64,000 bases of DNA from positions 4,899 to 68,898 of the forward strand of contig JBIOTN010000067.1 of NCBI GenBank assembly GCA_044866005.1, in the 5' to 3' direction. This DNA is from Candidatus Rokuibacteriota bacterium (GTDB lineage: Bacteria > Methylomirabilota > Methylomirabilia > Rokubacteriales > DASRDR01). Made by a program: the position numbers and the translations under genes. The notes beneath the pieces are model-generated. The model had not been told where the DNA came from, made no database searches, and saw only the letters and a program-made list of their open reading frames with translations. This document shows, piece by piece, positions 35,084-49,127 of the stretch. Position 1 is the stretch's first letter. Each line of letters starts with the position of its first letter.

Positions 35084-35105
35084 GCCGCCTCACAGGGAGA
35101 CGACG

Positions 35106-35410
35106 CATGCGACGTGTCGCCGGACTCATGGCGGTGCTGCTTCTGATGGCGTGGCTCACCGTGCCTGTCACCGCCTTCGCGGCGACCAAGGTCGCCGTGA
35201 TCGAGGTCAAGGGGATGGTCTGTCAGGCCTGACCCTTCTCGGTCAAGACAGCCTTGGAGAGGCTGCCGGGGGTGAGCCGAGCTGACGTGAGCCTCGAGAA
35301 GGCGGAGGCTCGGGTCGAGTTCGACGACGCGAAGATCTCGGCCGACAAGCTGGCCGCGGCCGTCGACCGGCTGGGCTTCCGCGCTCGGGTGCTCGCCGTC
35401 GAGCCAGGGG
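35106..35410 (+). CDS. MerP/CopZ-like periplasmic HMA-domain protein with GMVCQA-[TGA]-P (CxxU). The signal peptide is in a different frame (+1 indel near 35160). Candidate selenoprotein or pseudogene.
   Basis: ATG 35106 with AGGGAGA RBS encodes MRRVAGLMAVLLLMAWLT. The HMA domain is in the next frame from 35161. TGA at 35230-35232; hairpin 16 nt downstream. Confidence 0.5.
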
Positions 35411-35416
35411 GGTAGC

Positions 35417-35683
35417 GTGCCGGTCGAGATCGAGCTCTTGACCGCGCCCGGCTGAGGGAAATGCGAGGCCGCCAAGGCGTTGGCGCTCGACGTGATCGAC
35501 TCGGTCCGAGCGGAGTGCCATGATGTGTGGCTCACGGTCGTCGACGTCACGGAGCAGCCTGCCGTGGCGGTGAAGTACCGCGTGACGGCGACGCCCGCCA
35601 TCGCGATCGACGGAGTCCTCGCCTTCCGCGGCGTCCCCCCAGCCCACGTCCTCCGCGACCGAATCTTGCAGGCGAAGGCGTGA
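35417..35683 (+). CDS. Small thioredoxin-fold protein with G-[TGA]-GKC (UxxC); candidate selenoprotein
   Basis: GTG start after AGGGGGG; the C-terminal TATPAIAIDG..FRGVPP motif matches small Trx/Grx-like proteins. TGA at 35453-35455; hairpin 14 nt downstream. Confidence 0.55.
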
Positions 35684-35737
35684 CTCGGTCTCGAAGAGCG
35701 GAGCCACAGCCCCCCTTTGGCTTGGCCACGATTTCAC

Positions 35738-35768
35738 TTGACTCTCCTCCCAGGAGGAGGGTTTAGCC
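35738..35768 (+). promoter_or_regulatory. MerR-type promoter: TTGACT, 19-bp spacer with dyad CTCCTCC-CA-GGAGGAG
   Basis: 20 nt upstream of the merR-family ATG. Confidence 0.45.
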
Positions 35769-35787
35769 TCGGGTCAGGACGGGACAC

Positions 35788-36249
35788 ATGAGCGAGTTGA
35801 AGATCGGGGCGCTGGCCCGGCTCGCGGGCTGCACGGTCAAGGCCATTCGATTCTACGAGGCGAACGGCCTCCTTTTCGCCGCTGCGCGCAGCCCGGCCCG
35901 GTACCGGCTCTATACCGAGCGCGACCTCAGACAACTCCAATTCATCCAGCGTGCGAAGCTGATCGGGCTCCCGCTCACCAAGATCAAGAGTCTGGTCGTT
36001 CACGTGAGCGAGGAGCAGTGCGGGTGTCCCACGATCCGGCCTCAGCTGGAGCAGCTGATCCGCGAGCAGCTCAAGGAAGTGGGGGACAAGCTCGACCAGC
36101 TGGCGCTCCTCAAGCACGAGCTGGAGGGCTTGCTGGCAAAGATGCGTGGCGCCGTGCGACCACTTCCCCAAGAGCTCTGCGTGTGCGGCGCACAGCATCA
36201 CTCGGGGTTTGTCGGACTCGTGAAGCTCAAGCAAGGAGGACGGCGATGA
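35788..36249 (+). CDS. MerR-family heavy-metal-responsive regulator (Cys-rich effector domain)
   Basis: HTH IGALARLAGCTVKAIRFYE; C-terminal CGC and CVC. Confidence 0.8.
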   Translation: MSELKIGALARLAGCTVKAIRFYEANGLLFAAARSPARYRLYTERDLRQLQFIQRAKLIGLPLTKIKSLVVHVSEEQCGCPTIRPQLEQLIREQLKEVGDKLDQLALLKHELEGLLAKMRGAVRPLPQELCVCGAQHHSGFVGLVKLKQGGRR

Positions 36250-36581
36250 ACAAGAGTCGGAAGTCACCGGGCCTGCCGGTCCTGCCCGCCCCGCGCACCG
36301 ACTGCGGGGACGGCAGCTGCGGCTGTGGCTGCGGGATTCCGCTGGCCACGCCCAAGCCCACAAAGACCGGCAAGCAACGTACACGCCCGACCGGGGAAGG
36401 AGGAGCGAACATGGAGCCGGTGAGAATGTCGCTGTGCCATGAAGGTGCGGAGTGTCCGGAGGTGGTCGTCGAGCGAGACGAGGTTCGCATCGGCGAAGCC
36501 GGCAACCTGGCCGTGCTCAAGAAGGACGAGTGGAACATCCTCGTCGAGCTGATCCGATCGGGACAGCTGACGCAGCTGTAG
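36246..36581 (+). CDS. Cys-rich hypothetical protein (CGDGSCGCGCG N-terminus)
   Basis: ATGA overlap with the merR stop; 111 aa. Confidence 0.5.
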   Translation: MNKSRKSPGLPVLPAPRTDCGDGSCGCGCGIPLATPKPTKTGKQRTRPTGEGGANMEPVRMSLCHEGAECPEVVVERDEVRIGEAGNLAVLKKDEWNILVELIRSGQLTQL

Positions 36582-36603
36582 AGTCGCGCGACGGAGAGCT
36601 CTC

Positions 36604-36747
36604 ATGGCACTGAAGAAGGGAGAGCGCTACCGCTGCCCGGATCCGAAGTGCGGCTGCGAGATCGAGGTCACCAAGGGCGCCGCGCCGGGCCAGGGCGGCG
36701 ATCTGAACCCGCGTTGCTGCTGCGGCAAGGAGATGCAGCGCGTGTGA
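36604..36747 (+). CDS. Small (47 aa) Cys-rich metallothionein-like peptide
   Basis: CPDPKCGCEIE...NPRCCCGKEM; the ATG follows the previous gene. Confidence 0.35.
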   Translation: MALKKGERYRCPDPKCGCEIEVTKGAAPGQGGDLNPRCCCGKEMQRV

Positions 36748-36807
36748 CGGGACGGGGTGCGGGACAATGGCCCCGCCCCCCGGTGCTCCGGGCAGAGGGA
36801 CGCAGCA

Positions 36808-38250
36808 TCAGCGTCGTACGCGCCTCGTAGGCAGCAGGGCCCGACTCAGGTGGCGATTCCAGCTCCCGTAGCGCTCTCGGATCGCGCCCCGGGGGAGCGC
36901 CAGGAGGATCACGGCGGCGCCGATGATCATGTCGTTCGACGTCGCACCGACATTCGAGCCGGCGAGCACCCAGGGCGCGACGACGAGCCAGGCCCCGACA
37001 ACGACGTTGACGAGGCGCAAGGGGCGGGCCACTTCCGCCGTCACGATGATGGCCAAAGTCAGGATCAACGCCCCTCCGATGTGGTCGCTGTCCGCAGCCG
37101 GGCCCTCGGCCTGGACCACGGCGGGCGCCGCCATCAGCCAGACGCCAAGCGCCGCGCTGACCAGGAGAGTCCAGGGAGCGCCGATCCCCCACAGCATGGC
37201 CGGGACGATCCGGGAGATCGGTGACCCGTAGCGCGGGGTTCGGAGATCCTTGCCCTCGCGCTCGGTCGTGCCGCCCACCCAGAACGTCCACCAGAAGGGC
37301 TTCCCCTCCCGGACACTCTGGGCGAGGAACTGTCCCATCGCGACGACCTCGTCGAGCGTCAGGGGAATCATCAACAACATGAGGAAGGCCGCCGCCAGAC
37401 AGAGGGTGCACCACTGACCGACGATGACGGGCTGGAGAATGACCAGCACGATGTGGGTGATGCCGAGCGGGACGACGAGGATCCCGAAGAACGTCACCAT
37501 CCATGGCATCGTGCGCCACCGAGTCTGGCCGCCCATGTAGCCCATGAGGGCTTCGAACGTATAGGCCGCCGCGCCCAGCCCCGCGTCCGAGATCGGCCAG
37601 GCACGCGAGACCTCCGAGTGGAGGACGCGCATGGTGCCTTCACCGAAGAACGGTTCCCAGGCGACGTCGACATAGCCGAGCTGGACGGCGGCCAGATAGC
37701 GGGAGATGAACCAGCCGGCGAAGGCGAGCGCGATGATGGGCGTCCGCTGGAGCCAGGAAGACGGATTGTACGTCCATCCGGGCGGGATCTCCGGGCCGGG
37801 CTTCATCATGACCAGATGATGGGCCGCGCCCGGCATCATGGGCACGAGCACCGAGAAGGTGATTGCCAGCGCCCCGACCAGGGTATCGTTGACGTAGGCG
37901 ACCGGGCGTGGCGCCCAGAAGAGGAGCGGCGCAAACTGCAGCCACACGCCGACGAGACACACCGCCCAGCGCCCCGCGAAATCCAGGCGCGGCAAGAGCG
38001 ACAGCGCGCCGAAGCACGCGAGCAGCGCCCCGCTGATCGTGTCGCTCCACGCGGTCGCCGCGCTTTCGTAGCCGAACGTGGCGGGACTACCGATCAGCCA
38101 TACGCCCAGCACCGCGTTCGTCACGTTGGTCCAGAGCCATTTCGCGCGCTGCTGCCGGATCATCTCCAGATGGTCTCGAGCGTGTTCCTGCACCCCGTCC
38201 CGCGGGAGTGGCGCGGCAGGGGCGGCGTGCTCGGGACCTCGCCGGCTCAT
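36808..38250 (-). CDS. Vitamin K epoxide reductase (VKOR)-family membrane protein
   Basis: Polytopic; GQWCTLCLAAAF CxxC in a TM helix. Confidence 0.65.
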   Translation of the reverse strand: MSRRGPEHAAPAAPLPRDGVQEHARDHLEMIRQQRAKWLWTNVTNAVLGVWLIGSPATFGYESAATAWSDTISGALLACFGALSLLPRLDFAGRWAVCLVGVWLQFAPLLFWAPRPVAYVNDTLVGALAITFSVLVPMMPGAAHHLVMMKPGPEIPPGWTYNPSSWLQRTPIIALAFAGWFISRYLAAVQLGYVDVAWEPFFGEGTMRVLHSEVSRAWPISDAGLGAAAYTFEALMGYMGGQTRWRTMPWMVTFFGILVVPLGITHIVLVILQPVIVGQWCTLCLAAAFLMLLMIPLTLDEVVAMGQFLAQSVREGKPFWWTFWVGGTTEREGKDLRTPRYGSPISRIVPAMLWGIGAPWTLLVSAALGVWLMAAPAVVQAEGPAADSDHIGGALILTLAIIVTAEVARPLRLVNVVVGAWLVVAPWVLAGSNVGATSNDMIIGAAVILLALPRGAIRERYGSWNRHLSRALLPTRRVRR

Positions 38251-38265
38251 CGGGCTCTCGCGGCT

Positions 38266-39345
38266 CTAAGCGGCCGTCCGGTCGAGCGATGACGGCGGCT
38301 CGAGCTTGTTCGCGCGATACCAGCCGAGGGGGTCGGCCTCGAGCGCGGCGATCATCTTGGGGAGCGTGCCTCCGAGCGAACGCTTCGGCTCCCAGCCGAG
38401 CAGGGTGCGCGCCCGGGTGATGTCGAGGGCGTAATGGTCGTCGGCGAGGTCGATCATCCACGGCTTGATGAACGGCTCGTCGCCCAGGGGCATCTGATCC
38501 TGGACCCAGGCGCCGGCCTTGGCCAGGGCCTTCGGGATCTCGCGCGTCTCCCACTCTTCCCCGTGGATCAGCCGACCGAGCGTGTGTTGCAGCTCGTCGT
38601 AGCTGAGCGTCGCCGGCTCTCCCACGAGCAGCGGCAGCTCCGGCGGCAGCTCGGCCCGGCGCTCGACGACCCTGAGGAAGGCCTCCACCAGATCCTCGAG
38701 GTGGACGAACGCCTGTCCGTGCGAGATGGCGCCGGGAAAGACGCGACTCGTGACCCGGCGCTCGTAGATCCGCTGAATCTGGCGCGCGAGCGGGATCGAG
38801 TGGCACCGGTCATCGTAGACGCCGGCGATCCGCAGGAGCACCGCGGGGATGTCACCGCGCTCGGCGCGGATGAGTCGCTCGGTCGTGACTTTCGACTCGG
38901 GGTAGTCCCACTTGGGCTCGAGCGGCCAATCTTCGTTGATGCGCTGACCGGGTGCGCAAGGCGCATGGACGAGCATGGTGCTGGAGAACACGAACTGCTC
39001 GACCTGGAAGCGCTTGACGGCCCGAAGCAGCCGCTCGGTTCCTCGGATCGTAATCTCCTCGTATTTCGGGCTCGGCTCGCCGGAGAAGTCGTAGTACGCG
39101 GCGAGGTGGATGATCGAGGCGACGCGCTCGCCGTGGCGGGCGCGGACGCCGGCGAGGGCGCGGTCGACGCTCTCGTCCGAGGTGAGGTCGACGCGCACGC
39201 AGCCGGCGGTAGGTGGCGGCTCGGGCGGGTCGTCACGGTCGAAGCCCACGGTCGTGACGCGTTCGGTGAGCCTCTTGGCCGCCGCATAGCCGATGAGTCC
39301 GCTGCTCCCCGTGACGATCACGACCCCCGGCGATCGCGAGTCCAT
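38266..39345 (-). CDS. NAD-dependent epimerase/dehydratase (SDR family)
   Basis: VVIVTGSSGLIGY Rossmann motif. Confidence 0.85.
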   Translation of the reverse strand: MDSRSPGVVIVTGSSGLIGYAAAKRLTERVTTVGFDRDDPPEPPPTAGCVRVDLTSDESVDRALAGVRARHGERVASIIHLAAYYDFSGEPSPKYEEITIRGTERLLRAVKRFQVEQFVFSSTMLVHAPCAPGQRINEDWPLEPKWDYPESKVTTERLIRAERGDIPAVLLRIAGVYDDRCHSIPLARQIQRIYERRVTSRVFPGAISHGQAFVHLEDLVEAFLRVVERRAELPPELPLLVGEPATLSYDELQHTLGRLIHGEEWETREIPKALAKAGAWVQDQMPLGDEPFIKPWMIDLADDHYALDITRARTLLGWEPKRSLGGTLPKMIAALEADPLGWYRANKLEPPSSLDRTAA

Positions 39346-39370
39346 GTGGCCTCCACCCGCTGACGGATGG

Positions 39371-39712
39371 CTACGGTTTGGGCGGCTGCTTGCCCGGGCT
39401 CATCATTCCGCCCGTCATGCCCCCCGAGCCCATGCGGCCCATCATCTCCATCATCCGGGTCATGCCGGCCATGACGTCGCCGTTTCCCATCTGGCGGGCC
39501 ATGCGCATCATCCCGTCCATCAGCTTGGCCGCGCGGCCGGACTGCAAGAGGTCCTGCATGGCGCGCCGGCCTTCCTCGCTCATGCCCCCGCCCTGCATCA
39601 TCTCGACGCAGGCCGCCTGGGGGTCGGCCGGCGCCTGTTGAGCGCGAGCGGTGGGGACGGCGAGCAGGGCCAGGAGCGCGGGTCCCAGGATCGTCACTGT
39701 CCGCAGTGTCAT
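39371..39712 (-). CDS. Secreted Met-rich protein (MxxM/MM repeats), likely a periplasmic Cu(I)/Ag(I) binder
   Basis: Signal peptide; 23 Met in 113 aa. Confidence 0.6.
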   Translation of the reverse strand: MTLRTVTILGPALLALLAVPTARAQQAPADPQAACVEMMQGGGMSEEGRRAMQDLLQSGRAAKLMDGMMRMARQMGNGDVMAGMTRMMEMMGRMGSGGMTGGMMSPGKQPPKP

Positions 39713-39826
39713 GGTCGATCCTCCTGTCGACGCCGGTGCGTGCGGTCCGTAACCCTGCAAAGCGGGTACCGCCGATCGCCCGGTTTGCGTGCGCCGGGAC
39801 GCGAAGGATGGTAAGCTACCGGCCAG

Positions 39827-40156
39827 ATGGGGAAGCGGAGTCACCCCGCCGTTCCGATGACCCCGGCTCTCGCCGCCGTGCTGGCGGTCGTGGTCGCCGG
39901 CTTCTGCCTCGCCATCGAGGCCGGGACGGCCCACGCCGCAGGCGACGGGTGTCCGGCCTCGGAGTCCTCGCCCCGGTTCTGCGCGCAGGCCGGTCCCGGC
40001 GATCAGGCGGTTCCGGGGCTGACCGTGGCGGCACTGGTGCCGCCGCCGGGGCCCGAGCTGGGCGACTGGCTGCCCGTCTCGGCCGCGCCGCCGCCGGCCG
40101 TCCGCTTCCACGCGGACGTCTCCCGCCCCCGCGCGCCCCCGCTCCTTCCCGCCTAG
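39827..40156 (+). CDS. Hypothetical secreted protein
   Basis: Signal peptide and two Cys; the opposite strand carries only a composition-driven ORF. Confidence 0.3.
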   Translation: MGKRSHPAVPMTPALAAVLAVVVAGFCLAIEAGTAHAAGDGCPASESSPRFCAQAGPGDQAVPGLTVAALVPPPGPELGDWLPVSAAPPPAVRFHADVSRPRAPPLLPA

Positions 40157-40271
40157 TCGCTCGATCTCGCTCGTTGGGATACCGGCCGCCGCGGACGGCG
40201 GCCAGGCTCGAGACTCGTCGCTCGACGTCATCGGACGACGTGTCCGTGGGCGCGTGGCGGAGGCGTGAACT

Positions 40272-40820
40272 GTGCGCGTGCAGCGGATTGCAGGCGGTCG
40301 GCCACACGTGGGGCTCGTCCTCGCGTTGCTCGTCTCCGTCTCGCCCGCGACGGTGTCGGATGCGACCGACGTCCGGCCGGCCGTCGGGCATCGCGCGCCC
40401 GATTTCGTCCTCCGCGATCCGGACGGCCAGCCGGTCGAGCTCTCCCGGATCCTCGGCGAGCACGCCGTCCTCCTCAACTTCTGGGCGACCTGGTGTCCGC
40501 CGTGCCGCGAGGAGATGCCGACGATGGAGCGGGCGTACCGCGACTACAAGGCGCGCGGGCTCACGGTCCTGGCCGTGAGCATCGACGCCGGCAGTGAAGC
40601 ATCCGTCAGGGCGAAAGTGAAGGCGTTCATGAAGGAGCTGAAGCTCACGTTCCCGGCCGTGCTGGACGTCGAGGGCGAGGTCGTGCGCCGCTACCGGCTG
40701 CGCGGCCTCCCCACGACGTTCCTGATCGACCGGACGGGCATGATTCGATCGGAGGAGCTCGGGTTCCGGGACTGGAGCGATGCCGCGGCGCGAAGGAAGC
40801 TGGACGCCCTGCTGAAATGA
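40272..40820 (+). CDS. TlpA/ResA-family periplasmic thiol:disulfide oxidoreductase (Cys form, WCPPC)
   Basis: GTG start; signal/anchor; [13 protein letters not shown]. Confidence 0.8.
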   Translation: [182 protein letters not shown]

Positions 40821-40830
40821 GTCCCCGCCC

Positions 40831-41598
40831 ATGGCGCTGATTCACGAGCTGATGCGGAGCTGGTACCTGGTGCTGAGCCGGTTGAGCGCCGCGCTCACCG
40901 TCCCGGTGAGCGACCTCGCCGACCGGATCGAGCTCCCGCTCCTCACGGTGCTGCTCTTCGGCGTGGTCGGCGCGATGGCGCCCTGTCAGCTCACGACGAA
41001 CCTCTCGGCGATGGCCTACGTCGGGAGCCGCGCCGGCGAGGGCCGGCCCTGGCGCGAGACGCTCGCCTACCTCGCGGGGAAGGCCCTCGTCTACACGCTG
41101 GTCGGCGCCGCCGTCTTCGCGGTCGGCCGGGAGCTCCAGGCGGCGGCCATTCCCGTGGCCATGGCGGCGCGAAAGGCGCTCGGGCCCCTCATGATCCTCA
41201 TCGGCCTGGGGCTGCTGGGGCTCTACCGGCTGCGCGGCTCGCTCGGCGGTCGGCTCTCCGCCTGGCTGCGGACCCGGGCACCGCAGCGCGGCGCGTGGGG
41301 CGCCTTCCTGCTCGGCGTGGCCTTTGCCGGGAGCTTCTGTCCCACGCTCTTCTGGCTCTTCTTCGGCCTGACGATCCCGCTGGCCCTGCGGAGCGCGGCC
41401 GGGTGGAGCTTCCCGGCGGTCTTCGCGGCCGGCACCACGCTGCCCCTCGTCGCGTTCGCCGGGCTGCTCGCGCTGGGGCGCGAGGCCGGCGGGCTGGTCG
41501 AGCGCCTCCAGCGCTCCCACGGGCTCGTGCACCGGATGGCGGGGGTGGTGATCATCCTGGCGGGGATCAACGACACGCTGACGTACTGGGCGCTCTGA
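40831..41598 (+). CDS. CcdA/DsbD-family transmembrane electron transporter
   Basis: Two conserved Cys (MAPCQL, SFCPT). Confidence 0.8.
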   Translation: MALIHELMRSWYLVLSRLSAALTVPVSDLADRIELPLLTVLLFGVVGAMAPCQLTTNLSAMAYVGSRAGEGRPWRETLAYLAGKALVYTLVGAAVFAVGRELQAAAIPVAMAARKALGPLMILIGLGLLGLYRLRGSLGGRLSAWLRTRAPQRGAWGAFLLGVAFAGSFCPTLFWLFFGLTIPLALRSAAGWSFPAVFAAGTTLPLVAFAGLLALGREAGGLVERLQRSHGLVHRMAGVVIILAGINDTLTYWAL

Positions 41599-41628
41599 GA
41601 CACGGCACGCTGAAACGGAGGATCTGAC

Positions 41629-42132
41629 ATGTCGAGGATCGAGCGAGAGCGAATCGGGGCGGCGGGCGGGGAGAACGGCGCGGGGACGGCCGGCCCGGGT
41701 GGCGGCGCGCGCTACTGTGCCGTGTGCGGGACGGCGGTGGGCGGCGAGAGTCCCCCGATCGAGCGCTTCGGCGAGCCGTTCTGCTCCGAGGCGCACGCGG
41801 CGGAGTTCGTCGACCGGGTGCGGGGCGCCCGGGTCCAGGCCGCGGCGAGGCCGCCGGCCGCGGGCAGCGCGTGTGCCATGGGTGCAGGCGACGCCGCCGC
41901 GCCGGGACAGCGCGGGAAGGCGACCCTCGGGCGGGCGCTCTGCTGGGGCGCGCCGCTCCTGGTCCTCGGCGTGCTGCTGGTCGGCGGCACCGGCGCGCTG
42001 GCGGGGGCGGCCGGCGCCCTCCTGCCCGCGCTCGCGATCCTGGCCTGCCCGCTCGGGATGTACCTGATGATGCGCTCGATGTCGAAGATGGGCCACCAGG
42101 ACGACCGCGGCGACACGGATGGCCGGAAGTAG
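41629..42132 (+). CDS. YHS-like metal-binding domain protein with C-terminal Met-rich TM segment (DUF2933-like)
   Basis: YCAVCG...EPFCSEAHAAEF; C-terminal ACPLGMYLMMRSM. Confidence 0.5.
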   Translation: MSRIERERIGAAGGENGAGTAGPGGGARYCAVCGTAVGGESPPIERFGEPFCSEAHAAEFVDRVRGARVQAAARPPAAGSACAMGAGDAAAPGQRGKATLGRALCWGAPLLVLGVLLVGGTGALAGAAGALLPALAILACPLGMYLMMRSMSKMGHQDDRGDTDGRK

Positions 42133-42199
42133 CGCCGGCCGTGCGCCGGGCGCGAGCGCTCGCCCTGACGGCACGGTCGAGTAAAAAGGGGCGCGACGC

Positions 42200-42820
42200 G
42201 TGAAGCTCTACGAGCGGTACGTGTTGCCGTGGCTGATCCACCTGGCCATGCAGACCCGCGTGCACACCGCGGAGCGGGCGCGGTTCGTCCCCATCGCCAC
42301 CGGGCTGGTCCTCGAGGTCGGGGTCGGCTCGGGGCTCAACCTGCCCTTCTATGGCCCGAAGGTCGCGCGGCTCTACGCGCTCGACCCCTCACGAGAGCTC
42401 TGGCGGCTGGCGCGCCGGCGGCTGCGAGCGGTCGCGTTCCCGGTCGACTATCTCGCGGCCTCGGCGGAGCAGATTCCCCTGGACGACGGGAGCGTGGACT
42501 CCGTCGTGAGCACGTGGACCCTCTGCACGATCCCGGATCCCGCCAGCGCGCTCGGCGAGATCAAGCGCGTCCTGAAGCCGGACGGGCGCTTCGTCTTCGT
42601 CGAGCACGGACGGGCGCCCGAGCCGGGCGTGCGCCGCTGGCAGCAGCGGCTCGACCGGGTCTGGCCGCGGATCGCGGGGGGCTGCCACCTCGGCCGCCAG
42701 ATCGACGACGTGATCGCCGGAGCCGGGTTCCGCGTGGCGCAGATCGAGCGCGGGTACACGCCGGGCTTGCCCCGGCCGTTCGGATACCGGTTCAAGGGGC
42801 TCGCCCAGCGCCCCGACTGA
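42200..42820 (+). CDS. Class I SAM-dependent methyltransferase
   Basis: VLEVGVGSG motif; paralogue at 50453. Confidence 0.8.
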   Translation: MKLYERYVLPWLIHLAMQTRVHTAERARFVPIATGLVLEVGVGSGLNLPFYGPKVARLYALDPSRELWRLARRRLRAVAFPVDYLAASAEQIPLDDGSVDSVVSTWTLCTIPDPASALGEIKRVLKPDGRFVFVEHGRAPEPGVRRWQQRLDRVWPRIAGGCHLGRQIDDVIAGAGFRVAQIERGYTPGLPRPFGYRFKGLAQRPD

Positions 42821-42836
42821 CCAACGGGAGGAAGAC

Positions 42837-43739
42837 GTGCGAAGACGCATACTGAGCTGGTTTCGGGTCGTAGGAGCGGGGGCGGCGCTGCTCGGGGCGA
42901 CAGGGCTTGCGTCCGCCGCCTCGCAGCATCCTGGCACGGCGAGCTCGACGTTCGAGCATGTCCACGCCCTGGCGATGGACGCCGAGGGCCGGACGCTCTG
43001 GCTCGGGACTCACGCCGGGCTCTTCCGGACCGAAGGCGGGGGACGGTCGTGGGAGCCGGTGGCGCTGCCTGTGCCGGCGGGCCACGCCGACATCATGACG
43101 GTGACCACCGACCCGGGCGATTCCCGGGTGCTCTACGCCGCCACGCACGATGCCGGGGTCTTCAAGAGCGTGGACGGCGGGGCGACGTGGAAAGCCGTGA
43201 ACGCCGGCCTCGGCGGGCTGGACGTCCACGGGCTCGCCGTCGACCCGAACACGCCGTCGAAGCTCCACGCCGCCGTGCGGGACAAGGGCGAGGGGATCTA
43301 TCGGAGCACCGATGGCGGCGGCAAGTGGACGCGCGTGGACGATGGACCCGGCGGCGAGGTCAAGGTCCTGGCCTCGGTCAACATGCCGACGGGGATGGGC
43401 GGCATCTGGCTGTACGCGGGCACGGCCGAGGGGCTTCAGCGGAACCCCGACTGTTTCTGAGGGTGGAAGCTCATGGCGGGCGGTCTGCCCGCCGGAAAGA
43501 CGGTGAACGGCTTCGCGGTGGATCCCACCAATCCGCGCCTGATGTACGTCGCGATGCGGGACGGCCTCTTCCGCAGCACGGATGGCGGCGAGAGCTGGAA
43601 GCCGGTAGGTAAGGGGCTCCGGGACATGGCGGTCGTGGTCGTGAACCCGAAGCGGCCGGCCGAGGTCTACGCGGCGACGACCGATGGGATGATCTACCGG
43701 AGCGCCGACGGAGGAACCACGTGGGAACGCCGGAAGTGA
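42837..43739 (+). CDS. Secreted BNR/Ycf48-like beta-propeller protein interrupted by an in-frame TGA (43458-43460)
   Basis: ORFs 42837-43460 and 43473-43739 are in the same frame. SxDGGxxW repeats lie on both sides of the TGA, and a 7-bp hairpin with a GGUCU loop sits 15 nt after it. Confidence 0.5.
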
Positions 43740-45265
43740 CGACGCTGTCGCGGCGGGACTTCCTCCGCCTGTCGGGCGGGGCCGGGGTCGGCGCCGTGGC
43801 CTTCTCGCTCGGCGGCGGCGTGCTCTCCCGCGCGGGCGCCGCGCCGGCCGGCGGGCGGGGCGTCCGGGAGATCCGGCTCGAGGCGAGCGACCTCACGTGG
43901 GAGCTCGCACCGGGGAAGCGCGTCAAGGCCATGGCCTACGGCGGCCAGGTCCCGGGGCCGGAGCTGCGGGTCAAGGAAGGCGAGCGCGTGCGCGTCATCC
44001 TGACGAACCGCCTCGCCGAGCCGACGACGATCCACTGGCACGGGGTGGACGTCCCGAACGCCATGGATGGCGTGCCGGCGGTCACGCAGAAGCCGGTGCC
44101 GCCCGGCGAGAGCTTCGTCTACGAGTTCGAGGCGCGGCCCGCCGGGACGCGCTGGTACCACACGCACGCCGACGAGCATCGGCAGCTGGACCTCGGTCTC
44201 GCGGCGCCGTTGATCATCGAGCCGGCGACCGCCGAGCCCTTCCCCTTCGACCGCGAGTACACGCTCGTCCTCGACGACTGGGCGACCGGGACGGGTCCGG
44301 CATTGCCGCCGACGCGCGAGGGGATCGCCGGCGCGCGCGGCGGCATGGGCGGGATGATGGGCCGAATGGGCGGCGGCATGGGCCGCATGATGGAAGGGAT
44401 GATGGGCCGGGGCGGCATGGGCGGGATGATGGGCGGCCAGATGTCGGGACGCGGGCACGAGCCGGCCTACGACACGATGACGATCAACGGCAAGGCCTAC
44501 CCGGCGACGACCCCGCTCACCGTGCGGAAGGGCGAGCGGGTCCGCCTGCGGCTGATCAACGCCAGCGCCGACCACACGCACGTGATCCGGCTCGCCGGCC
44601 ACCGCCTCCGGGTCACCCACACCGACGGCAATCCGCTCGTCCAGCCGGTCGAGGTGGACGCGATCCCGATCGCGCCCAGCGAGCGCTACGACGTCCTGTT
44701 CGTGGCCGATCGGCCGGGCGCGTGGTTCCTCCACTGTGTGCAGACCGGTCACCCGGGCGCGGGCGAGCAGGTCGCCGTGGTGTACGAGGGGCACGAGGGC
44801 GAGAGACCCGACCCGCCGGCCGGGGGCGTGGCCGGGCTCGACCTCTGGCAGTACGGGCTCGGCCGGGGCCGGGACGTGCTGCCGCGCGCGTGGGGGGGCG
44901 AGCGCGCGTTCGACCTCCTGCTGAGCGGCGGCATGATGGGCTCGGACGCCTGGACGATCAACGGCAAGCAGTACCCGCGCACGGATCCACTGCGCGTCCG
45001 GAAGGGCGACCGGGTCCGCGTCCGGTTCGAGAACCACAGCATGGAGGCGCACCCGATGCACCTCCACGGGCAGTCGTTCAAGGTCCTCGCCGTCAACGGC
45101 GCCCGGTACGCGGCCCCCATCGTGAAGGACAGCGTGGACGTGGACGCTCACATGGGCTCGGTCGTCGTCGAGTTCACCGCCCACAACCCCGGCGACTGGT
45201 TCCTCCACTGCCACAAGCCCATGCACATGGAGGGCGGCATGATCACCCTCGCCCAGATCGCCTGA
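43721..45265 (+). CDS. Multicopper oxidase (CopA/CueO-like) with Tat signal and Met/Gly-rich insert
   Basis: RRDFL; HWHG, HTH, HCH..H copper ligands. Confidence 0.9.
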   Translation: MGTPEVTTLSRRDFLRLSGGAGVGAVAFSLGGGVLSRAGAAPAGGRGVREIRLEASDLTWELAPGKRVKAMAYGGQVPGPELRVKEGERVRVILTNRLAEPTTIHWHGVDVPNAMDGVPAVTQKPVPPGESFVYEFEARPAGTRWYHTHADEHRQLDLGLAAPLIIEPATAEPFPFDREYTLVLDDWATGTGPALPPTREGIAGARGGMGGMMGRMGGGMGRMMEGMMGRGGMGGMMGGQMSGRGHEPAYDTMTINGKAYPATTPLTVRKGERVRLRLINASADHTHVIRLAGHRLRVTHTDGNPLVQPVEVDAIPIAPSERYDVLFVADRPGAWFLHCVQTGHPGAGEQVAVVYEGHEGERPDPPAGGVAGLDLWQYGLGRGRDVLPRAWGGERAFDLLLSGGMMGSDAWTINGKQYPRTDPLRVRKGDRVRVRFENHSMEAHPMHLHGQSFKVLAVNGARYAAPIVKDSVDVDAHMGSVVVEFTAHNPGDWFLHCHKPMHMEGGMITLAQIA

Positions 45266-45338
45266 CGATGTCGGACGGACGGCGAGGAGGCGAGGGCGGG
45301 AAGTCGCCGCATGGGCCGCTCGGGAGGAGGCCGACACC

Positions 45339-45914
45339 GTGAACCTGTCACGCTGGGGTTGGGGTTCCCGCGCCTCCCGGCTCGGATTGTTGGTGCTGGT
45401 GGGCCTGGCGGCGCCGGCGCTCGCGGCCTCGGGGCCCGGCGACGCGCCCAGGGACCCCTTCGACACCATGGGCGTGCACCGTCCGGCGGAGCCGGCGCCG
45501 GCTCCGGATCTGGCCTTCCGGTCGCTGGACGGTCGCGAGGCGCGCCTGCGCGACCTCCGGGGCAAGGTGGTCCTCCTCGGTTTGTTCCGGACCGACTGAC
45601 CCAACTGCCGGCGGGAGGCTCCCGCCAAGGCGGCGCTGTATCGGGCGTTCCGGGCAAAGGGACTGGAAGTCGTGGGACTCGACCTGGGGGAATCGGCGGA
45701 GATGGTCCGAGCCTTCGCGAGAGAGTTCCAGGTGACGTTCCCCATGTGGCTCGACCCCGCGGGCCAGAGTCCGGCGGCCCTCGGCGTCTACGGGCATCCC
45801 AACACGATCGTCATCGACCGCGAGGGCCGCATCGTCGGCCGCGTCCGGGGCGAGCGTGACTGGGGCACCGACGACGCCCGACGTCTGGTCGAGGTCCTGT
45901 TGAGCCGCCGATGA
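45339..45914 (+). CDS. TlpA/redoxin-family periplasmic oxidoreductase with D-[TGA]-PNC (UxxC); candidate selenoprotein
   Basis: ORFs 45339-45599 and 45672-45914 are in the same frame. GKVVLLGLFRTD-U-PNCRREAP aligns with [21 protein letters not shown] of the Cys paralogue at 40272. Hairpin 10 nt after the TGA. Confidence 0.6.
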
Positions 45915-46651
45915 CCCGGAAAACGGGGCTGGCCAGAATGCCGCGAGCGGCGTGGCTCGCCGGCCTCGTCGTCCTGCACGCCGCCGTCGCCGCCGTGGCG
46001 ACGTGGATGGCGGTCACCGGGCAATGGCCCCGCGCGCTGGGGCTCGGAGCGGCCGGCGAGTCCACGCCGGCGACCCTGGAGACGCTCGGCCGGTACGGCG
46101 AACTGCCGGACTTCCGGCTGACCGAGCGGAGCGGCGACAGTGTGAGCCGGGCCGACCTGCTCGGGAAGGTCTGGGTGGCGAACTTCGTCTACACGCAGTG
46201 CACCGAGACGTGCCCGCTGCAGACGGCCGAGATCGCGCGACTCCAGGCCGAGTTCGTGGGGGAGGCGGACTTCCGGCTCGTCTCGATCACCGTGGACCCC
46301 GAGCGGGATGACACGGCGGCCCTGTCGCGCTACGCGGAGCGCTACGGAGCGGACAGGCAGCGCTGGCTGTTCCTCACCGGGGACAAACGCGCGATCTACC
46401 GCCTCGCCAAGGACGGCTTCCGCCTGGGCGTCGTCGATCCCGACGACCCCGGAGCGAGCCAGACGAGCCTTCTCCACTCCTTCTCACCGGCCGCGGCGTG
46501 GGCGACCCACGGCTCCCAGGGCCTGATCATGCACAGCTCCCGGTTGGTGGTCGTGGACCGGACCGCGACGATCCGCGCCTATCACCTCCCCGACGACCCG
46601 CAATCGCTCGCTCGTCTCCGGCGGAACGTGCGGAGCGTGCTCCACCCGTGA
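45911..46651 (+). CDS. SCO1/SenC-family copper chaperone
   Basis: YTQCTETCP CxxxC; ATGA overlap with the previous gene. Confidence 0.8.
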   Translation: MTRKTGLARMPRAAWLAGLVVLHAAVAAVATWMAVTGQWPRALGLGAAGESTPATLETLGRYGELPDFRLTERSGDSVSRADLLGKVWVANFVYTQCTETCPLQTAEIARLQAEFVGEADFRLVSITVDPERDDTAALSRYAERYGADRQRWLFLTGDKRAIYRLAKDGFRLGVVDPDDPGASQTSLLHSFSPAAAWATHGSQGLIMHSSRLVVVDRTATIRAYHLPDDPQSLARLRRNVRSVLHP

Positions 46652-46784
46652 ACCAGCTCTGGAGGCTCGGCCGCTGGGCGGCCGCTGGCCTGGTCGTCGC
46701 CGTCGTGGCCAAGGTCAGCCTGGAGATCATGCGCGGCGGCCCGGGCCGCCACAACGTCGAGGCGGTGCGCGACGCGCGCGGCGG

Positions 46785-47369
46785 ATGAGGTCGCCGATGC
46801 CTCGCCTCGGAAAGTACGCCATGGTGCTCGTCCCGGCCGTCGGCCTGATCGGGCTCCTCGCCTATGGCTTTAGCCGGGACCCCCGCGACATCCGCTCGCC
46901 GCTCCTCGGGCGCCCCGCCCCGCCGCTGTCGCTGACGCTCTTCGACGGCAGCCGGTTCGTCCTGGCCCAGCAGGCGGACAAGGTCGTCGTCGTGAACTTC
47001 TGGGCGTCCTGGTGCCTGCCGTGCCGGGACGAGGCGCCGCTCCTCGAGGCCGCCTGGGTCGCCTACCGGGAGCGCGGGGTCGTCGTGGTCGGGGTAAACT
47101 TTCAGGACGCGGAGCCCGCCGCGCGCGCCTTCCTCGGTGAGTTCGGCCTGACGTACCCGAACGGGCCCGACGCCGGTGGGCGGATCGCGATCGGCTACGG
47201 CGTCTACGGGATCCCCGAGCTGTTCGTCATCGGGCGGGACGGGCGGATCGCGTACAAGCACATCGGCGCGATCGGGGGGACTGTGCTCGTGGCGAAGGTC
47301 GAAGAGGCCCTCCGCGGCACGGTCAGCGCGAGCGAGGGGCGGAGCGGGCGCTATCAACCGATCCGGTGA
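46785..47369 (+). CDS. DsbE/CcmG-like thiol:disulfide oxidoreductase
   Basis: NFWASWCLPCRDE. Confidence 0.8.
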   Translation: MRSPMPRLGKYAMVLVPAVGLIGLLAYGFSRDPRDIRSPLLGRPAPPLSLTLFDGSRFVLAQQADKVVVVNFWASWCLPCRDEAPLLEAAWVAYRERGVVVVGVNFQDAEPAARAFLGEFGLTYPNGPDAGGRIAIGYGVYGIPELFVIGRDGRIAYKHIGAIGGTVLVAKVEEALRGTVSASEGRSGRYQPIR

Positions 47370-47386
47370 CCGAAAGGAGCCACTCG

Positions 47387-47875
47387 GTGTCGCAGGACGA
47401 TCGGAACGTCGAGCGATCGCGCATCACGCTGCTGGCCGGAGGCCTCGCCCTGGCGCTCACCCTGGCGACCCGGCGGGAATCTCGCGCGGCGCCAACGCCC
47501 TTTCCCGAGGTCATGGTCTACAAGACCCCGACCTGACGCTGCTGCGACGCGTGGGTGGGGCACCTGCGCCAGCACGGGTTTTCGGTGACGGTCGAGAATC
47601 GCACGGACCTCCGGCCGATCAAGGCGAAGCACGCGGTGCCGGCCGAGCTCCAGACCTGTCACACGGCGCTCGTCGGCGGCTACGTCGTGGAAGGGCACGT
47701 GCCGGCCGACCTGATCGTCCGCCTGCTCCGCGAGCGGTCGCCGGTGGCCGGCCTCGCCGTCCCCGGGATGCCGGTCGGGTCGCCCGGGATGGAAGTGCCG
47801 GGGAGCCCGGCGGCCAAATATCAGGTCTTCAGCTTCGACCGGAGCGGCAAGACGACGGTGTTCGCGAGCCGGTGA
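47387..47875 (+). CDS. DUF411/CopG-family periplasmic copper-binding protein with T-[TGA]-RCC (UxCC in place of CxCC); candidate selenoprotein
   Basis: GTG start after AAAGGAG. Signal peptide, then MVYKTPT-U-RCCDAW. The C-terminal half (ORF 47555-47875) is in frame. A 9-bp hairpin lies 12 nt after the TGA. Confidence 0.6.
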
Positions 47876-47881
47876 GACGGC

Positions 47882-48235
47882 ATGGCGGGAGCCGGTCGCC
47901 GCGGCGTGCTGGTCGGTTTCGGTCTCGCGGCCCAGGTCCTGGGCGCGGTGGGCCCCGCCGGGGCGACGCCGCTCCAGAACCTGGCCGACGACCAGGTCGT
48001 CCGGACGATCCGCTACTGCCGCGGCGAGTACCGGCTCACCATGGCGAGCGGCGCGCGCCGGCGCTTCCCCGAGTTCAACCTGCGCTTCAAGACCGATGGC
48101 AGCCGGGAAGGCCCGGAGCGCGGCCGGCCGGTGTTACTGCCGGCCGGGATGCAAGGGGACCGCGGGCAGGTGATCTTCAGCGGCCCGGAGGAGCTCAGGC
48201 GCTTCCTCGTCGAGGGGTGTGACGGCACGCCGTAG
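47882..48235 (+). CDS. Hypothetical secreted protein
   Basis: Signal peptide; compact spacing in the operon. Confidence 0.4.
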   Translation: MAGAGRRGVLVGFGLAAQVLGAVGPAGATPLQNLADDQVVRTIRYCRGEYRLTMASGARRRFPEFNLRFKTDGSREGPERGRPVLLPAGMQGDRGQVIFSGPEELRRFLVEGCDGTP

Positions 48236-49127
48236 CGGGGGTGCCGCGGCCCTTCTCATCCTTCTGCTGGCCTCCGCGCCGCCGGCGCCGTCCCACGAAC
48301 TGCCGACCTTCCCGCGGGTCCGCCTCCTCTCGGCCTCGCCGCATCGGTGGGACCCTGGGATTCGCATCGTGACCGTCGAGGTGCGCGACCCGAGCGGGCG
48401 CGAGCCGGTGGCGGGCGCGGAGGTGGTCGTCTCGGGGCTCGAGCGGGAGCGTGGCTCGGCCGTCCGCCTGCGCGACCACTGGCTCGCGCCGACCCCGCAG
48501 GCCGGCGTCTACCAGGGAGCCGTGGAGTTCCCGGGACCCGGCCTGTGGGACTTGACGGTCACCGTGAAAGGTCGCTACGTCGGCGAGGCGCACTTCACGC
48601 TCGAGGTCACCGGCGCCGGGCCGCGGGCGGCCTCGCGAGGCGGTCAGCCGGAGCTTGCCTTCGGCTGGCAGGGCTGGCGGTTGCTCGTGCTGAACTGGGG
48701 CCACCTCCTCGGCTTTGGTCTCTGGCTCGGCATCACGGCGCTCGCGCTCGCGCGGCGGGACCCCGCGCCCCGGGCGACGGTGCGCCTGACCTGGCTTGCG
48801 CTCGCCATCGGCGTCGCCACCGGCTTCAACAAGATGGAATACGGGACTCCGTTTCCCCGCGGCCTGCGCCTCCTCGACTGGGACGTGCCGCGGATCTTCT
48901 TCGGCCGGGAGTACCTCTACACCCTGACGGCGAAGCATCTCTTGATCGTCGCGGCCTTCGCCGTGACGGCCTGGATGACGCGCCTCGTCTGGCGCGCCGA
49001 GCCGAGCGCCGCGGGTGGCCGGCGGTTCCGGCAGCTCCTCCTCGTGAACCTGCTGCTCGCCCTGGCCATCGGCGGCGCAGCCGCGATCCTCGGACTGCTC
49101 CACGCGATCGTTCTCCACTTCGCCTGA
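48219..49127 (+). CDS. Membrane protein with a periplasmic Ig-like N-domain and four or more C-terminal TM helices (CopC/CopD-like?)
   Basis: Signal peptide, then a hydrophobic C-terminal half. Confidence 0.5.
   Translation: MTARRSGGAAALLILLLASAPPAPSHELPTFPRVRLLSASPHRWDPGIRIVTVEVRDPSGREPVAGAEVVVSGLERERGSAVRLRDHWLAPTPQAGVYQGAVEFPGPGLWDLTVTVKGRYVGEAHFTLEVTGAGPRAASRGGQPELAFGWQGWRLLVLNWGHLLGFGLWLGITALALARRDPAPRATVRLTWLALAIGVATGFNKMEYGTPFPRGLRLLDWDVPRIFFGREYLYTLTAKHLLIVAAFAVTAWMTRLVWRAEPSAAGGRRFRQLLLVNLLLALAIGGAAAILGLLHAIVLHFA

What the first reader, a model, noticed from the sequence alone, without database searches (positions are those of the whole stretch)
47387..47875. DUF411/CopG-family copper-cluster protein with UxCC instead of CxCC
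A signal peptide is followed by EVMVYKTPT-[TGA]-RCCDAWVGHL. CopG/DUF411 proteins have a conserved CxCC motif forming a Cys-bridged tetranuclear Cu cluster, and here the first Cys is TGA.

A 9-bp stem GCGUGGGUG/CACCUGCGC with loop GGG lies 12 nt downstream. The rest of the domain (ORF 47555-47875) is intact and in frame.

A Sec in this cluster would be a new metal-site chemistry. I am not aware of DUF411 among reported selenoprotein families.
Basis: partly seen in the sequence, partly recalled or inferred. Interest (0 to 1): 0.8.

Follow-up and report, generated by a model that had tools for sequence, protein, structure and literature searches.

The report
Selenocysteine form of copper protein CopG
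A secreted copper-cluster protein (CopG/DUF411) in this high-GC, probably Rokubacteria/Methylomirabilota genome has the first of its copper-binding cysteines encoded by a UGA selenocysteine codon, a recoding shared by 33 relatives from four phyla and absent from the current catalogue of selenoprotein families.

Summary
Gene 47387-47875 (+) has a Shine-Dalgarno site, a signal peptide and an in-frame TGA at 47534-47536. A 9-bp hairpin with a GGG loop starts 12 nt downstream, and the rest of the DUF411 domain is intact. The TGA aligns with the first Cys of the C-x-C-C copper-cluster motif of the solved CopG structure (6WIS, E=1.6e-29).

Among 157 homologous loci this column is TGC/TGT in 124 and TGA in 33, and never TAA or TAG. 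The TGA forms fall in about 11 clades across four phyla. All keep the signal peptide and every invariant ligand residue.

The downstream hairpin is selected specifically in TGA loci. Helix-compatible synonymous codons occur in 16/20 versus 7/45 loci (p=1e-6). The published bacterial SECIS criteria are met by 18/34 versus 6/124 loci (p=7e-10). Six independent run assemblies carry the identical TGA.

The window holds three more TGA-at-Cys genes in the same copper island, so this organism almost certainly decodes Sec. DUF411 is absent from a 2026 catalogue of 119 prokaryotic selenoprotein families and has no NCBIfam model.

Verdict: a genuine, apparently unreported selenoprotein family. Not shown: Sec machinery in this genome, and any Se-Cu chemistry.

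The parts
47373..47379 (+). Shine-Dalgarno-like AAAGGAG, 7 nt before the GTG start
   Evidence: Read directly from the sequence.
47387..47875 (+). Complete Sec-CopG (DUF411) gene: 162 codons including one UGA = Sec at residue 50; the true stop is TGA 47873-47875
   Evidence: Translation. PF04214 at 86.7 bits. PDB 6WIS at E=1.6e-29. Identical in six run assemblies.
47387..47491 (+). N-terminal export signal (approximately residues 1-35: charged n-region, hydrophobic ITLLAGGLALALTLA, then ...SRAA); the boundary is approximate
   Evidence: Hydrophobic 12-mer score 2.28. An equivalent signal is present in 33/34 Sec-form loci. Cleavage site and export pathway are inferred.
47534..47536 (+). In-frame UGA read as selenocysteine (U50), at the first Cys of the C-x-C-C copper-cluster motif
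   Evidence: Aligned to the first Cys of CopG C-G-C-C. The column is TGC 107, TGT 17, TGA 33, TAA/TAG 0 in 157 loci, and 124/124 Cys in Cys forms.
47540..47545 (+). Codons for C52 and C53, the remaining cysteines of the U-x-C-C motif
   Evidence: 100% conserved in both Sec and Cys forms.
47549..47569 (+). Bacterial SECIS-type hairpin: 9-bp stem (47549-47557 / 47561-47569), apical loop GGG (47558-47560), 21 nt between UGA and loop, -12.3 kcal/mol
   Evidence: Meets all four published bSECIS criteria. Helix paired in 72.5% of cells versus 29-49% for slid controls. Codon-choice and pair enrichment relative to Cys loci.
47657..47665 (+). Invariant C91-H92-T93 motif
   Evidence: 100% conserved in Sec and Cys forms. 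Role inferred from conservation only.
47768..47791 (+). M128-x6-M135 (MPVGSPGM), the methionine pair that ligates a further Cu in CopG/CutG
   Evidence: 100% conserved. Ligand role taken from PMC8456105 and PMC7558416.
43721..45265 (+). Upstream operon gene: TAT-signal multicopper oxidase with a Met/Gly-rich insert (CueO/CutO type)
   Evidence: Pfam Cu-oxidase, Cu-oxidase_2, Cu-oxidase_3 and TAT_signal. The MCO-CopG linkage is known from cutFOG.
45339..45914 (+). Operon gene: TlpA/ResA-like thioredoxin-fold protein with its own in-frame TGA (45597-45599) giving U-P-N-C; a candidate reductant partner
   Evidence: bSECIS-type hairpin at -12.2 kcal/mol. The same TGA is present in Rokubacteria locus L001.
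45911..46651 (+). Operon gene: SCO1/SenC copper chaperone
   Evidence: Pfam PF02630, E=6.5e-25.
46785..47369 (+). Operon gene: second TlpA/redoxin-type thiol-disulfide oxidoreductase (Cys form, WCLPC); its stop lies 18 nt before the CopG start
   Evidence: Pfam Redoxin and AhpC-TSA.
47882..48235 (+). Operon gene: 117-aa secreted protein of unknown family, found next to Sec-CopG in close relatives
   Evidence: No Pfam or NCBIfam hit. Adjacent in L001, L081, L084 and L161-L166.
48219..49127 (+). Operon gene: membrane protein with weak YtkA and CopD-like matches
   Evidence: Pfam hits below the gathering cut-offs.

Best explanation
The gene encodes a full-length, exported CopG/DUF411 copper protein. 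UGA at codon 50 is decoded as selenocysteine by the standard bacterial route: SelB with Sec-tRNA(Sec), recruited by the hairpin immediately downstream.

Sec takes the place of the first cysteine of the C-x-C-C motif. In CopG these cysteines bridge a tetranuclear copper cluster on a thioredoxin-like fold. C1 and C4 of C-x-C-C also form a CxxC, so the Sec sits at the N-terminal position of that CxxC. That is the usual Sec position in thioredoxin-fold selenoproteins (UxxC).

The protein most likely works as CopG is proposed to work: a periplasmic copper oxidoreductase or copper-transfer protein that balances Cu(I)/Cu(II) and supports the neighbouring multicopper oxidase. A selenolate would replace a thiolate as Cu ligand and/or redox-active nucleophile. 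The Sec-containing TlpA-like protein and the second redoxin in the operon plausibly keep the U-x-C-C site reduced.

Shown: the recoding signature, its conservation, the hairpin selection, family membership and the copper-gene context. Inferred: actual Sec insertion, Se-Cu ligation, and the partner roles.
For: (1) The TGA is at the first Cys of CopG's C-G-C-C. The column is invariant Cys in 124/124 Cys-form loci.

(2) 33 of 157 related loci have a stop at this column, and all 33 are TGA. They form about 11 clades with about 9 Cys/Sec switches, in Rokuibacteriota, Chloroflexota, 'delta proteobacterium' and Gemmatimonadota records.

(3) 33/34 Sec forms keep an upstream start and a signal peptide. 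The residues before the TGA are conserved through synonymous codon changes. All invariant ligand residues downstream are retained.

(4) The hairpin meets the published bSECIS criteria and is selected only where TGA is present:
- GTG/CAC/YTR codon set: 16/20 versus 7/45, p=1e-6.
- Pair 17-33: 82% versus 30%, p=4e-8.
- Contiguous helix of at least 7 bp: 17/34 versus 4/124.
- bSECIS criteria passed: 18/34 versus 6/124, p=7e-10.
- Two-sided changes: 17 cells versus 7.4 expected.

(5) Sequencing error is excluded, because six run assemblies are identical.

(6) TGA is also this genome's main true stop (38 of 48 ORFs, including this gene's own stop), so the recoding is context-specific.

(7) Three more TGA-at-Cys genes with bSECIS-type hairpins lie in the same copper island. 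One is conserved in L001.

(8) The nearest named relatives are Methylomirabilota/Rokuibacteriota, a phylum reported to include a MAG with 63 predicted selenoprotein genes.

(9) The copper context includes the MCO, two SCO1 genes, two P1B-ATPases, a MerR regulator and an HMA protein. The MCO-CopG pairing is known from cutFOG.
Against: - No selA, selB, selC or selD was found in the 64-kb window or in 1.24 Mb of fetched flanks, so Sec competence of this genome is not shown directly.
- The window's hairpin alone is not significant against shuffles (z=-1.16).
- The nine Chloroflexota TGA loci mostly fail the simple bSECIS model and have no consensus fold.
- Rfam gave no SECIS match.
- There are no protein-level or selenium data.
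- In R. capsulatus the Cys and Met motifs of CutG were dispensable for MCO activity, so the functional importance of the site is itself not settled.
Confidence: 0.86

Rival explanations
1. This is the same selenoprotein, but the Sec is not mainly a copper-cluster ligand. It acts as the attacking nucleophile of a UxxC redox motif, forming a transient selenenylsulfide. It would be a thiol/selenol-disulfide or Cu-thiol oxidoreductase relay with the TlpA-like partners.
For: CopG has a thioredoxin-like fold and is called a Cu-thiol oxidoreductase. U-x-C-C contains a UxxC, the commonest motif of Trx-fold selenoproteins. Three TlpA/redoxin genes, DsbD-like proteins and VKOR surround it.
Against: The homologous cysteines ligate Cu in the solved CopG structure, as reported. 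The Met pair and the C-H-T and E-G-H motifs are invariant in Sec forms, which argues that the metal site is kept. The two roles are not mutually exclusive.
Confidence: 0.3
2. The TGA is a real stop. The locus makes a 49-residue peptide, and possibly a separate 106-residue DUF411 fragment started at GTG 47555, as gene callers annotate it.
For: Public gene calls split it this way. TGA is the normal stop here.
Against: The fragment would lack both the signal peptide and the CxCC motif. There is no Shine-Dalgarno site before 47555, which lies inside the hairpin stem. The downstream start position is not conserved among Sec loci. Protein-level conservation continues across the TGA in 33 loci. Stops at this column are exclusively TGA.
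Confidence: 0.04
3. This is a pseudogene, or a sequencing or assembly error in a normal Cys-CopG gene.
For: A single TGC-to-TGA change would produce it.
Against: Six independent run assemblies are identical over all 489 nt. 33 diverged loci share the TGA, with intact frames and invariant functional residues. The hairpin has co-evolved with the TGA.
Confidence: 0.01
4. UGA is read through as a standard amino acid (Trp, Cys or Gly), by near-cognate decoding or by a reassigned genetic code, rather than as Sec.
For: UGA-C is a leaky stop context (own knowledge). No Sec machinery was seen in the window.
Against: TGA terminates most genes in the window, including this one, so there is no code reassignment. 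Every candidate site is a Cys-motif position followed by a hairpin meeting the bSECIS criteria, which is the signature of Sec and not of leaky read-through. In 33 of 34 loci the next base is G, not C.
Confidence: 0.04

Closest known systems
CopG of Pseudomonas aeruginosa (PDB 6WIS/6WJE) and CutG of Rhodobacter capsulatus (DUF411, PF04214)
   Same: Same family (E=1.6e-29 over 118 residues; PF04214). Same secreted thioredoxin-like domain. Same C-C, C-H-T, E-G-H and M-x6-M residues. Same linkage to a multicopper oxidase and other copper-resistance genes.
   Different: The first Cys of C-x-C-C is encoded by UGA with a SECIS hairpin. No characterised or catalogued CopG has Sec. The operon also carries a Sec-containing TlpA-like protein and SCO1 instead of cutF.
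Thioredoxin-fold UxxC bacterial selenoproteins (thioredoxin, TlpA/thiol-disulfide isomerase-like cd02966, redoxin PF08534, DsbA-like and others)
   Same: Cys homologues exist. Sec is at the N-terminal position of a CxxC-type motif on a Trx-like fold. The bSECIS lies inside the coding region just after the UGA. Sec and Cys forms have a patchy distribution.
   Different: The motif is U-x-C-C within a multinuclear copper site, not a simple dithiol/disulfide centre. The family is not in the 119-family catalogue.
Predicted Sec-containing metal-handling proteins: NF041115 UxxU metal-binding (seleno)protein, the HMA domain of the cation-transporting ATPase (UxxC), the SO_0444 Cu/Zn efflux transporter (UxC)
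   Same: Sec replaces a metal-ligating Cys in heavy-metal or copper homeostasis proteins. One such HMA protein (CxxU) lies in this same window.
   Different: Those are mononuclear HMA-type or transporter sites of unrelated folds. Here the Sec sits in a tetranuclear cluster site of a different family.
FdhA and [NiFeSe] hydrogenases (Sec as a direct ligand of Mo/W or Ni)
   Same: Experimentally established precedent that a selenolate can replace a thiolate as a catalytic metal ligand and change redox behaviour and oxygen tolerance.
   Different: Different metals, folds and reactions. No natural Se-ligated copper centre has been demonstrated (own knowledge).

Membership tests
CopG / DUF411 (PF04214) | Significant match to the PF04214 domain model | tested here: met
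   86.7 bits against a cut-off of 27, covering the full 48-position model.
CopG / DUF411 (PF04214) | Full-length similarity to the solved thioredoxin-like CopG structure | tested here: met
   phmmer against PDB: 6wis_A at E=1.6e-29, query 43-160 aligned to chain 6-121. This is a sequence-level result; no 3D model was built.
CopG / DUF411 (PF04214) | Conserved C-x-C-C motif | tested here: inconclusive
   The motif reads U-R-C-C. Positions 3 and 4 are Cys and position 1 is UGA. The feature is met only if UGA is read as Sec, the selenium analogue of Cys.
CopG / DUF411 (PF04214) | Conserved M-x6-M methionine pair | tested here: met
   M128-PVGSPG-M135, 100% conserved across 158 sequences.
CopG / DUF411 (PF04214) | Export signal (periplasmic protein) | tested here: met
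   Hydrophobic N-terminal segment after a charged n-region, present in 33/34 Sec forms. Judged by hydropathy only; no dedicated signal-peptide predictor was run.
CopG / DUF411 (PF04214) | Genomic association with copper resistance genes (MCO, CopA, Cus) | tested here: met
   MCO, SCO1, P1B-ATPases, MerR and HMA genes lie in the same island.
CopG / DUF411 (PF04214) | Binds a tetranuclear Cu cluster and has Cu oxidoreductase activity | not testable with these tools
   Requires the purified protein.
Bacterial selenoprotein gene | In-frame UGA aligned with Cys in homologues | tested here: met
   124/124 Cys-form loci have Cys at this column.
Bacterial selenoprotein gene | UGA conserved in independent orthologues, with coding conservation on both sides | tested here: met
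   33 further loci, all TGA, in about 11 clades. Synonymous variation upstream and invariant residues downstream.
Bacterial selenoprotein gene | [quoted passage not shown] | tested here: met
   Window element: loop GGG, 9 bp, 21 nt, -12.3 kcal/mol. 18/34 Sec loci pass versus 6/124 Cys loci. The Chloroflexota clade mostly does not pass.
Bacterial selenoprotein gene | Sec machinery (selA, selB, selC, selD) in the same genome | not testable with these tools
   Absent from the 64-kb window and from the fetched flanks. The rest of the genome could not be reached. Indirect support: three other Sec-type genes in the window, and a Methylomirabilota MAG reported with 63 selenoprotein genes.
Bacterial selenoprotein gene | Selenium demonstrated in the protein | not testable with these tools
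   Needs 75Se labelling or mass spectrometry.

The most novel reading that the evidence does not exclude
Sec-CopG carries a natural selenolate-bridged multinuclear copper cluster, which would be the first biological Cu-Se centre. It would be one component of a selenium-dependent periplasmic copper-handling system in Rokubacteria/Methylomirabilota. In that system at least four proteins of one copper island use Sec at their metal-binding or redox cysteine: an HMA metal binder, a small thioredoxin, a TlpA-like reductase and CopG. Copper tolerance or cuproenzyme maturation would then depend on selenium supply.
Probability: 0.4. Interest if true: 0.75.

Novelty: new member of a known kind. Interest (0 to 1): 0.62.

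Why it matters
It adds a widespread family, found in four phyla in soil, sediment and wastewater-type metagenomes, to the list of bacterial selenoproteins. Current annotation truncates these genes to 106-residue fragments that lack both the signal peptide and the metal motif.

It places selenium in the ligand set of a multinuclear copper site. This offers a natural system for asking what a selenolate does to copper-cluster redox potential, copper exchange rates and resistance to over-oxidation. So far that question has been approached only with engineered proteins (own knowledge).

Together with three neighbouring Sec genes, it points to a link between selenium use and periplasmic copper homeostasis in a phylum with an unusually large predicted selenoproteome.

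Tried and rejected
PDB 6WIS and homologues were used instead.
- Rfam scan of 34900-48300 at E<=10: no SECIS family, only chance-level hits.
- Single-sequence folding z-scores: not significant in this GC-rich genome. They were replaced by Sec-versus-Cys comparisons.
- RNAalifold on the nine Chloroflexota Sec loci: no consensus structure. A short GGCGAU/AUCGCC hairpin seen by eye in some of them falls just outside the model's spacing rule.
- Search for SelA/SelB/SelD with E. coli probes in the window and 1.24 Mb of flanks: only generic GTPase matches, all in Cys-form loci. ARAGORN found one tRNA-Sec, in L018, which is also a Cys-form locus.
- Synteny of the operon beyond close relatives: not conserved.
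- Primary CopG paper (PMC7415965), Deng et al. 2026 (the Methylomirabilota MAG with 63 selenoprotein genes), Haft & Tolstoy 2025, and the BSepDB supplementary family list: none is held. A prior mention in those sources cannot be excluded.
- Cluster look-up of P0006 and P0088 for organism names: none recorded.
- Structure prediction: not run, because the sequence match to a solved structure already settles the fold and the tool returns no coordinates for ligand geometry.
- TGA at 43458 in a BNR/F510_1955-like gene: considered as a fifth Sec site but left open, because the two halves map to overlapping model positions.

Full report
**1. The observation**

The region reads exactly as described.
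- A GTG start at 47387 follows an AAAGGAG Shine-Dalgarno site (47373-47379).
- The first ~35 residues have a charged n-region and a hydrophobic core (ITLLAGGLALALTLA).
- The frame then reads EVMVYKTPT-TGA-RCCDAWVGHL, with the TGA at 47534-47536 (residue 50).
- It continues without interruption to a true stop, also TGA, at 47873-47875.
- Twelve nucleotides after the in-frame TGA lies the hairpin GCGUGGGUG / GGG / CACCUGCGC (47549-47569).
- The ORF that gene callers report (47555-47875, 106 aa) starts inside that stem. It matches PF04214/DUF411 at 87.9 bits.

**2. Is the TGA at the CxCC cysteine?**

Pfam cannot answer this, because its DUF411 model has only 48 positions and ends well downstream of the motif. 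A phmmer search of the PDB can. The read-through protein matches P. aeruginosa CopG (6WIS) at E=1.6e-29 over 118 residues, and residue 50 aligns with the first Cys of C-G-C-C.

In an alignment of 158 homologous domains the column is Cys in all 124 Cys-form sequences. The other invariant residues are all retained in the TGA forms: C52, C53, W, C-H-T, E-G-H and M-P-x-G-S-P-G-M. The cysteines ligate Cu ions of the tetranuclear cluster and the Met pair ligates a further Cu. These ligand roles come from secondary accounts of the CopG structure (PMC7558416; PMC8456105); the primary paper was not available.

**3. Recurrence**

The nearest database relatives already hinted at a clade. Eighteen of the top 120 hits are 106-107-residue 'truncated' proteins at 76-99% identity, whereas full-length Cys forms reach at most 70%.

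I fetched 160 related loci from genomes and metagenomes and read the codon at the column. It is TGC in 107, TGT in 17 and TGA in 33, with no TAA or TAG.

The TGA loci come from records labelled Rokuibacteriota, Chloroflexota (seven), 'delta proteobacterium' (two) and Gemmatimonadota, plus 22 metagenome contigs. On a neighbour-joining tree they form about 11 clades, with about 9 Cys/Sec switches and a Cys root. This is the patchy pattern typical of selenoprotein families.

In 33 of 34 TGA loci the upstream frame has a start codon and a signal peptide. These are lipobox-like in Chloroflexota and RR-containing in several Rokubacteria relatives. The eight residues before the TGA are conserved through synonymous changes; for example, Pro is encoded by CCG, CCC, CCT and CCA. 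Both sides of the TGA are therefore translated as one protein.

**4. Error and pseudogene**

Six contigs assembled independently from six sequencing runs are 100% identical to the window over the whole 489-nt gene, TGA included. Together with section 3, this excludes sequencing error and decay.

**5. The hairpin**

On its own the window's hairpin is unremarkable for 71%-GC RNA (z=-1.16). Its core is encoded by the conserved W-V-x-H-L (TGG GTG nnn CAC CTG), so amino-acid conservation could mimic structure. The Cys-form loci provide the control.
- GC-corrected folding energy is lower in Sec loci (p=2.5e-4).
- Among loci encoding W-V-x-H-L, the helix-compatible synonymous set GTG/CAC/YTR is used in 16/20 Sec loci and 7/45 Cys loci (p=1e-6).
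- Pair 17-33, outside the conserved residues, is formed in 82% versus 30% (p=4e-8).
- A contiguous helix of 7 bp or more occurs in 17/34 versus 4/124 loci.
- Counting pairs on the ungapped alignment gives 72.5% paired versus 29-49% for slid registers, and 17 two-sided changes versus 7.4 expected.
- Other clades have different sequences folding at the same place (L153, L023, L035, L117).

[quoted passage not shown] The window element passes (GGG loop, 9 bp, 21 nt, -12.3 kcal/mol). So do 18/34 Sec loci, against 6/124 Cys loci (p=7e-10).

One caveat remains. The Chloroflexota clade mostly fails, and RNAalifold finds no consensus for it. It may use a different SECIS class, as the review notes for some genes.

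**6. Does this organism decode Sec?**

No tRNA and no SelA/B/D gene lies in the window or in the fetched flanks, so direct proof is missing. The indirect evidence is strong.
- TGA is the normal stop here (38 of 48 ORFs), so read-through must be site-specific.
- The window contains three more genes interrupted by TGA exactly at a Cys-motif position, each followed by a bSECIS-type hairpin:
  - a periplasmic HMA protein, G-M-V-C-Q-A-U (TGA 35230), whose best NCBIfam match is the 'metal-binding (seleno)protein' NF041115;
  - a small Thioredoxin_3 protein, U-G-K-C (TGA 35453);
  - a TlpA/ResA-like protein, U-P-N-C (TGA 45597), in the same operon as CopG. Its TGA is conserved in the Rokubacteria genome L001.
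- The nearest named relatives are Methylomirabilota/Rokuibacteriota. A 2026 review reports a Methylomirabilota MAG with 63 predicted selenoprotein genes.

**7. Context and likely mechanism**

The window is a copper and heavy-metal island.
- Transport and regulation: two P1B-ATPases, a MerR-type regulator and a MacB-type ABC exporter.
- Redox maintenance: two DsbD-like proteins, VKOR and three TlpA-like redoxins.
- Copper chaperones: two SCO1/SenC genes.
- The operon: TAT-MCO, Sec-TlpA, SCO1, TlpA2, Sec-CopG, a 117-aa unknown, a YtkA/CopD-like protein, then TetR.

CopG is described as a Cu-thiol oxidoreductase that helps copper resistance, especially without oxygen, and may pass Cu to the MCO. 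CutG loss halves MCO activity in R. capsulatus.

The most economical reading is that Sec-CopG does the same job, with a selenolate in place of one bridging thiolate. C1 and C4 of C-x-C-C form a CxxC on a thioredoxin-like fold, and Sec occupies the N-terminal position, as in most Trx-fold selenoproteins. A role as redox nucleophile, reduced by the adjacent Sec-TlpA-like protein, is therefore an overlapping alternative. Neither the chemistry nor the partner roles are shown here.

**8. Known or new?**

A full-text search for DUF411 or COG3019 together with selenocysteine or selenoprotein found nothing, and 'CopG' plus selenoprotein gave only unrelated hits.

The May 2026 catalogue of 119 prokaryotic selenoprotein families and subfamilies lists no DUF411, PF04214 or UxCC entry. 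NCBIfam, which holds the curated selenoprotein models used for annotation, has no model matching this protein at all. Several relevant sources could not be read, so a prior mention in a supplement cannot be ruled out.

The kind of thing is thoroughly familiar: a Cys-to-Sec version of a Trx-fold, metal-binding protein with an in-ORF bSECIS. Sec in copper-handling proteins is already predicted for other families. I therefore class it as a new member of a known kind. Its particular interest is that the Sec sits in a multinuclear copper site.

**9. Verdict**

Confidence that this is a genuine selenoprotein gene is about 0.86. Confidence that the Se directly ligates copper is roughly half that. Interest is 0.62.

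Noticed in passing
window 45339-45914 (+), TGA at 45597-45599: A TlpA/ResA-like thioredoxin-fold gene in the same operon is interrupted by TGA at the first Cys of its CxxC ('LFRTD-U-PNC'). A 7-bp hairpin with a GGC loop has its loop 17 nt after the TGA (-12.2 kcal/mol). The same TGA occurs in the Rokubacteria genome locus L001. This is a known kind of selenoprotein (TlpA-like UxxC).
   Followed up: partly
window 35107-35415 (+), TGA at 35230-35232: A periplasmic MerP/CopZ-like HMA protein has its GMxCxxC motif written G-M-V-C-Q-A-TGA (CxxU). Its best NCBIfam match is NF041115 'metal-binding (seleno)protein' (85.6 bits, just under the cut-off of 95), which is described as UxxU. This may therefore be a CxxU variant of that family.
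   Followed up: partly
window 35417-35683 (+), TGA at 35453-35455: A small Thioredoxin_3 (PF13192) gene begins GTG and reads MPVEIELLTAPG-TGA-GKC (UxxC). Gene callers would keep only the 67-residue C-terminal part. It lies 2 nt after the HMA gene's stop.
   Followed up: partly
window 42837-43739 (+), TGA at 43458-43460: Two same-frame ORFs both match a BNR/Sortilin-like F510_1955 family and are separated by one TGA ('NPDCF-TGA-GW'). A strong hairpin follows (z=-2.2). This could be a fifth Sec site (CxU) or simply two adjacent genes, because the halves map to overlapping model positions.
   Followed up: partly
window 47882-48235 (+); also L001 2903-3229, L081 839-1117, L084 1637-1894: A 117-residue secreted protein with no Pfam or NCBIfam match and two conserved-looking Cys regions (YCRGEY, EGCDG) sits next to Sec-CopG in the window and in close relatives. 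It may be a dedicated partner.
   Followed up: no
window 20567-49827: About 30 kb forms a copper and heavy-metal homeostasis island: two P1B-ATPases (one with YHS and HMBD domains), MerR, two SCO1/SenC genes, DUF7482, a MacB-type ABC exporter, two DsbD-like proteins, a VKOR+SPW membrane protein, three TlpA-like redoxins, the MCO and TetR. It contains all four clear Sec-type TGA sites.
   Followed up: partly
L018 10797-10890 (- strand): A tRNA-Sec (anticodon tca) lies about 5.5 kb from a Cys-form DUF411 gene in a Chloroflexota MAG. Sec-utilising Chloroflexota therefore carry both Cys and Sec forms of this family.
   Followed up: no
alignment of 34 Sec loci (A1): Sec forms have Thr immediately before the Sec in 94% of cases, against 48% in Cys forms. 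The base after UGA is G in 33 of 34 loci; the window's UGA-C is the exception. This may be a context preference for Sec insertion.
   Followed up: no
L004, L005, L010, L034, L047, L048, L065, L095, L111: The Chloroflexota Sec-form clade keeps the TGA but has no consensus downstream structure and mostly fails the standard bSECIS model. It may use a different SECIS class.
   Followed up: partly
window 43721-45265 (+): The multicopper oxidase carries a long Met/Gly-rich insert (GGMGGMMGRMGGGMGRMMEGMMGRGGMGGMMGG) and a TAT signal, like CueO/CutO-type cuprous oxidases.
   Followed up: no
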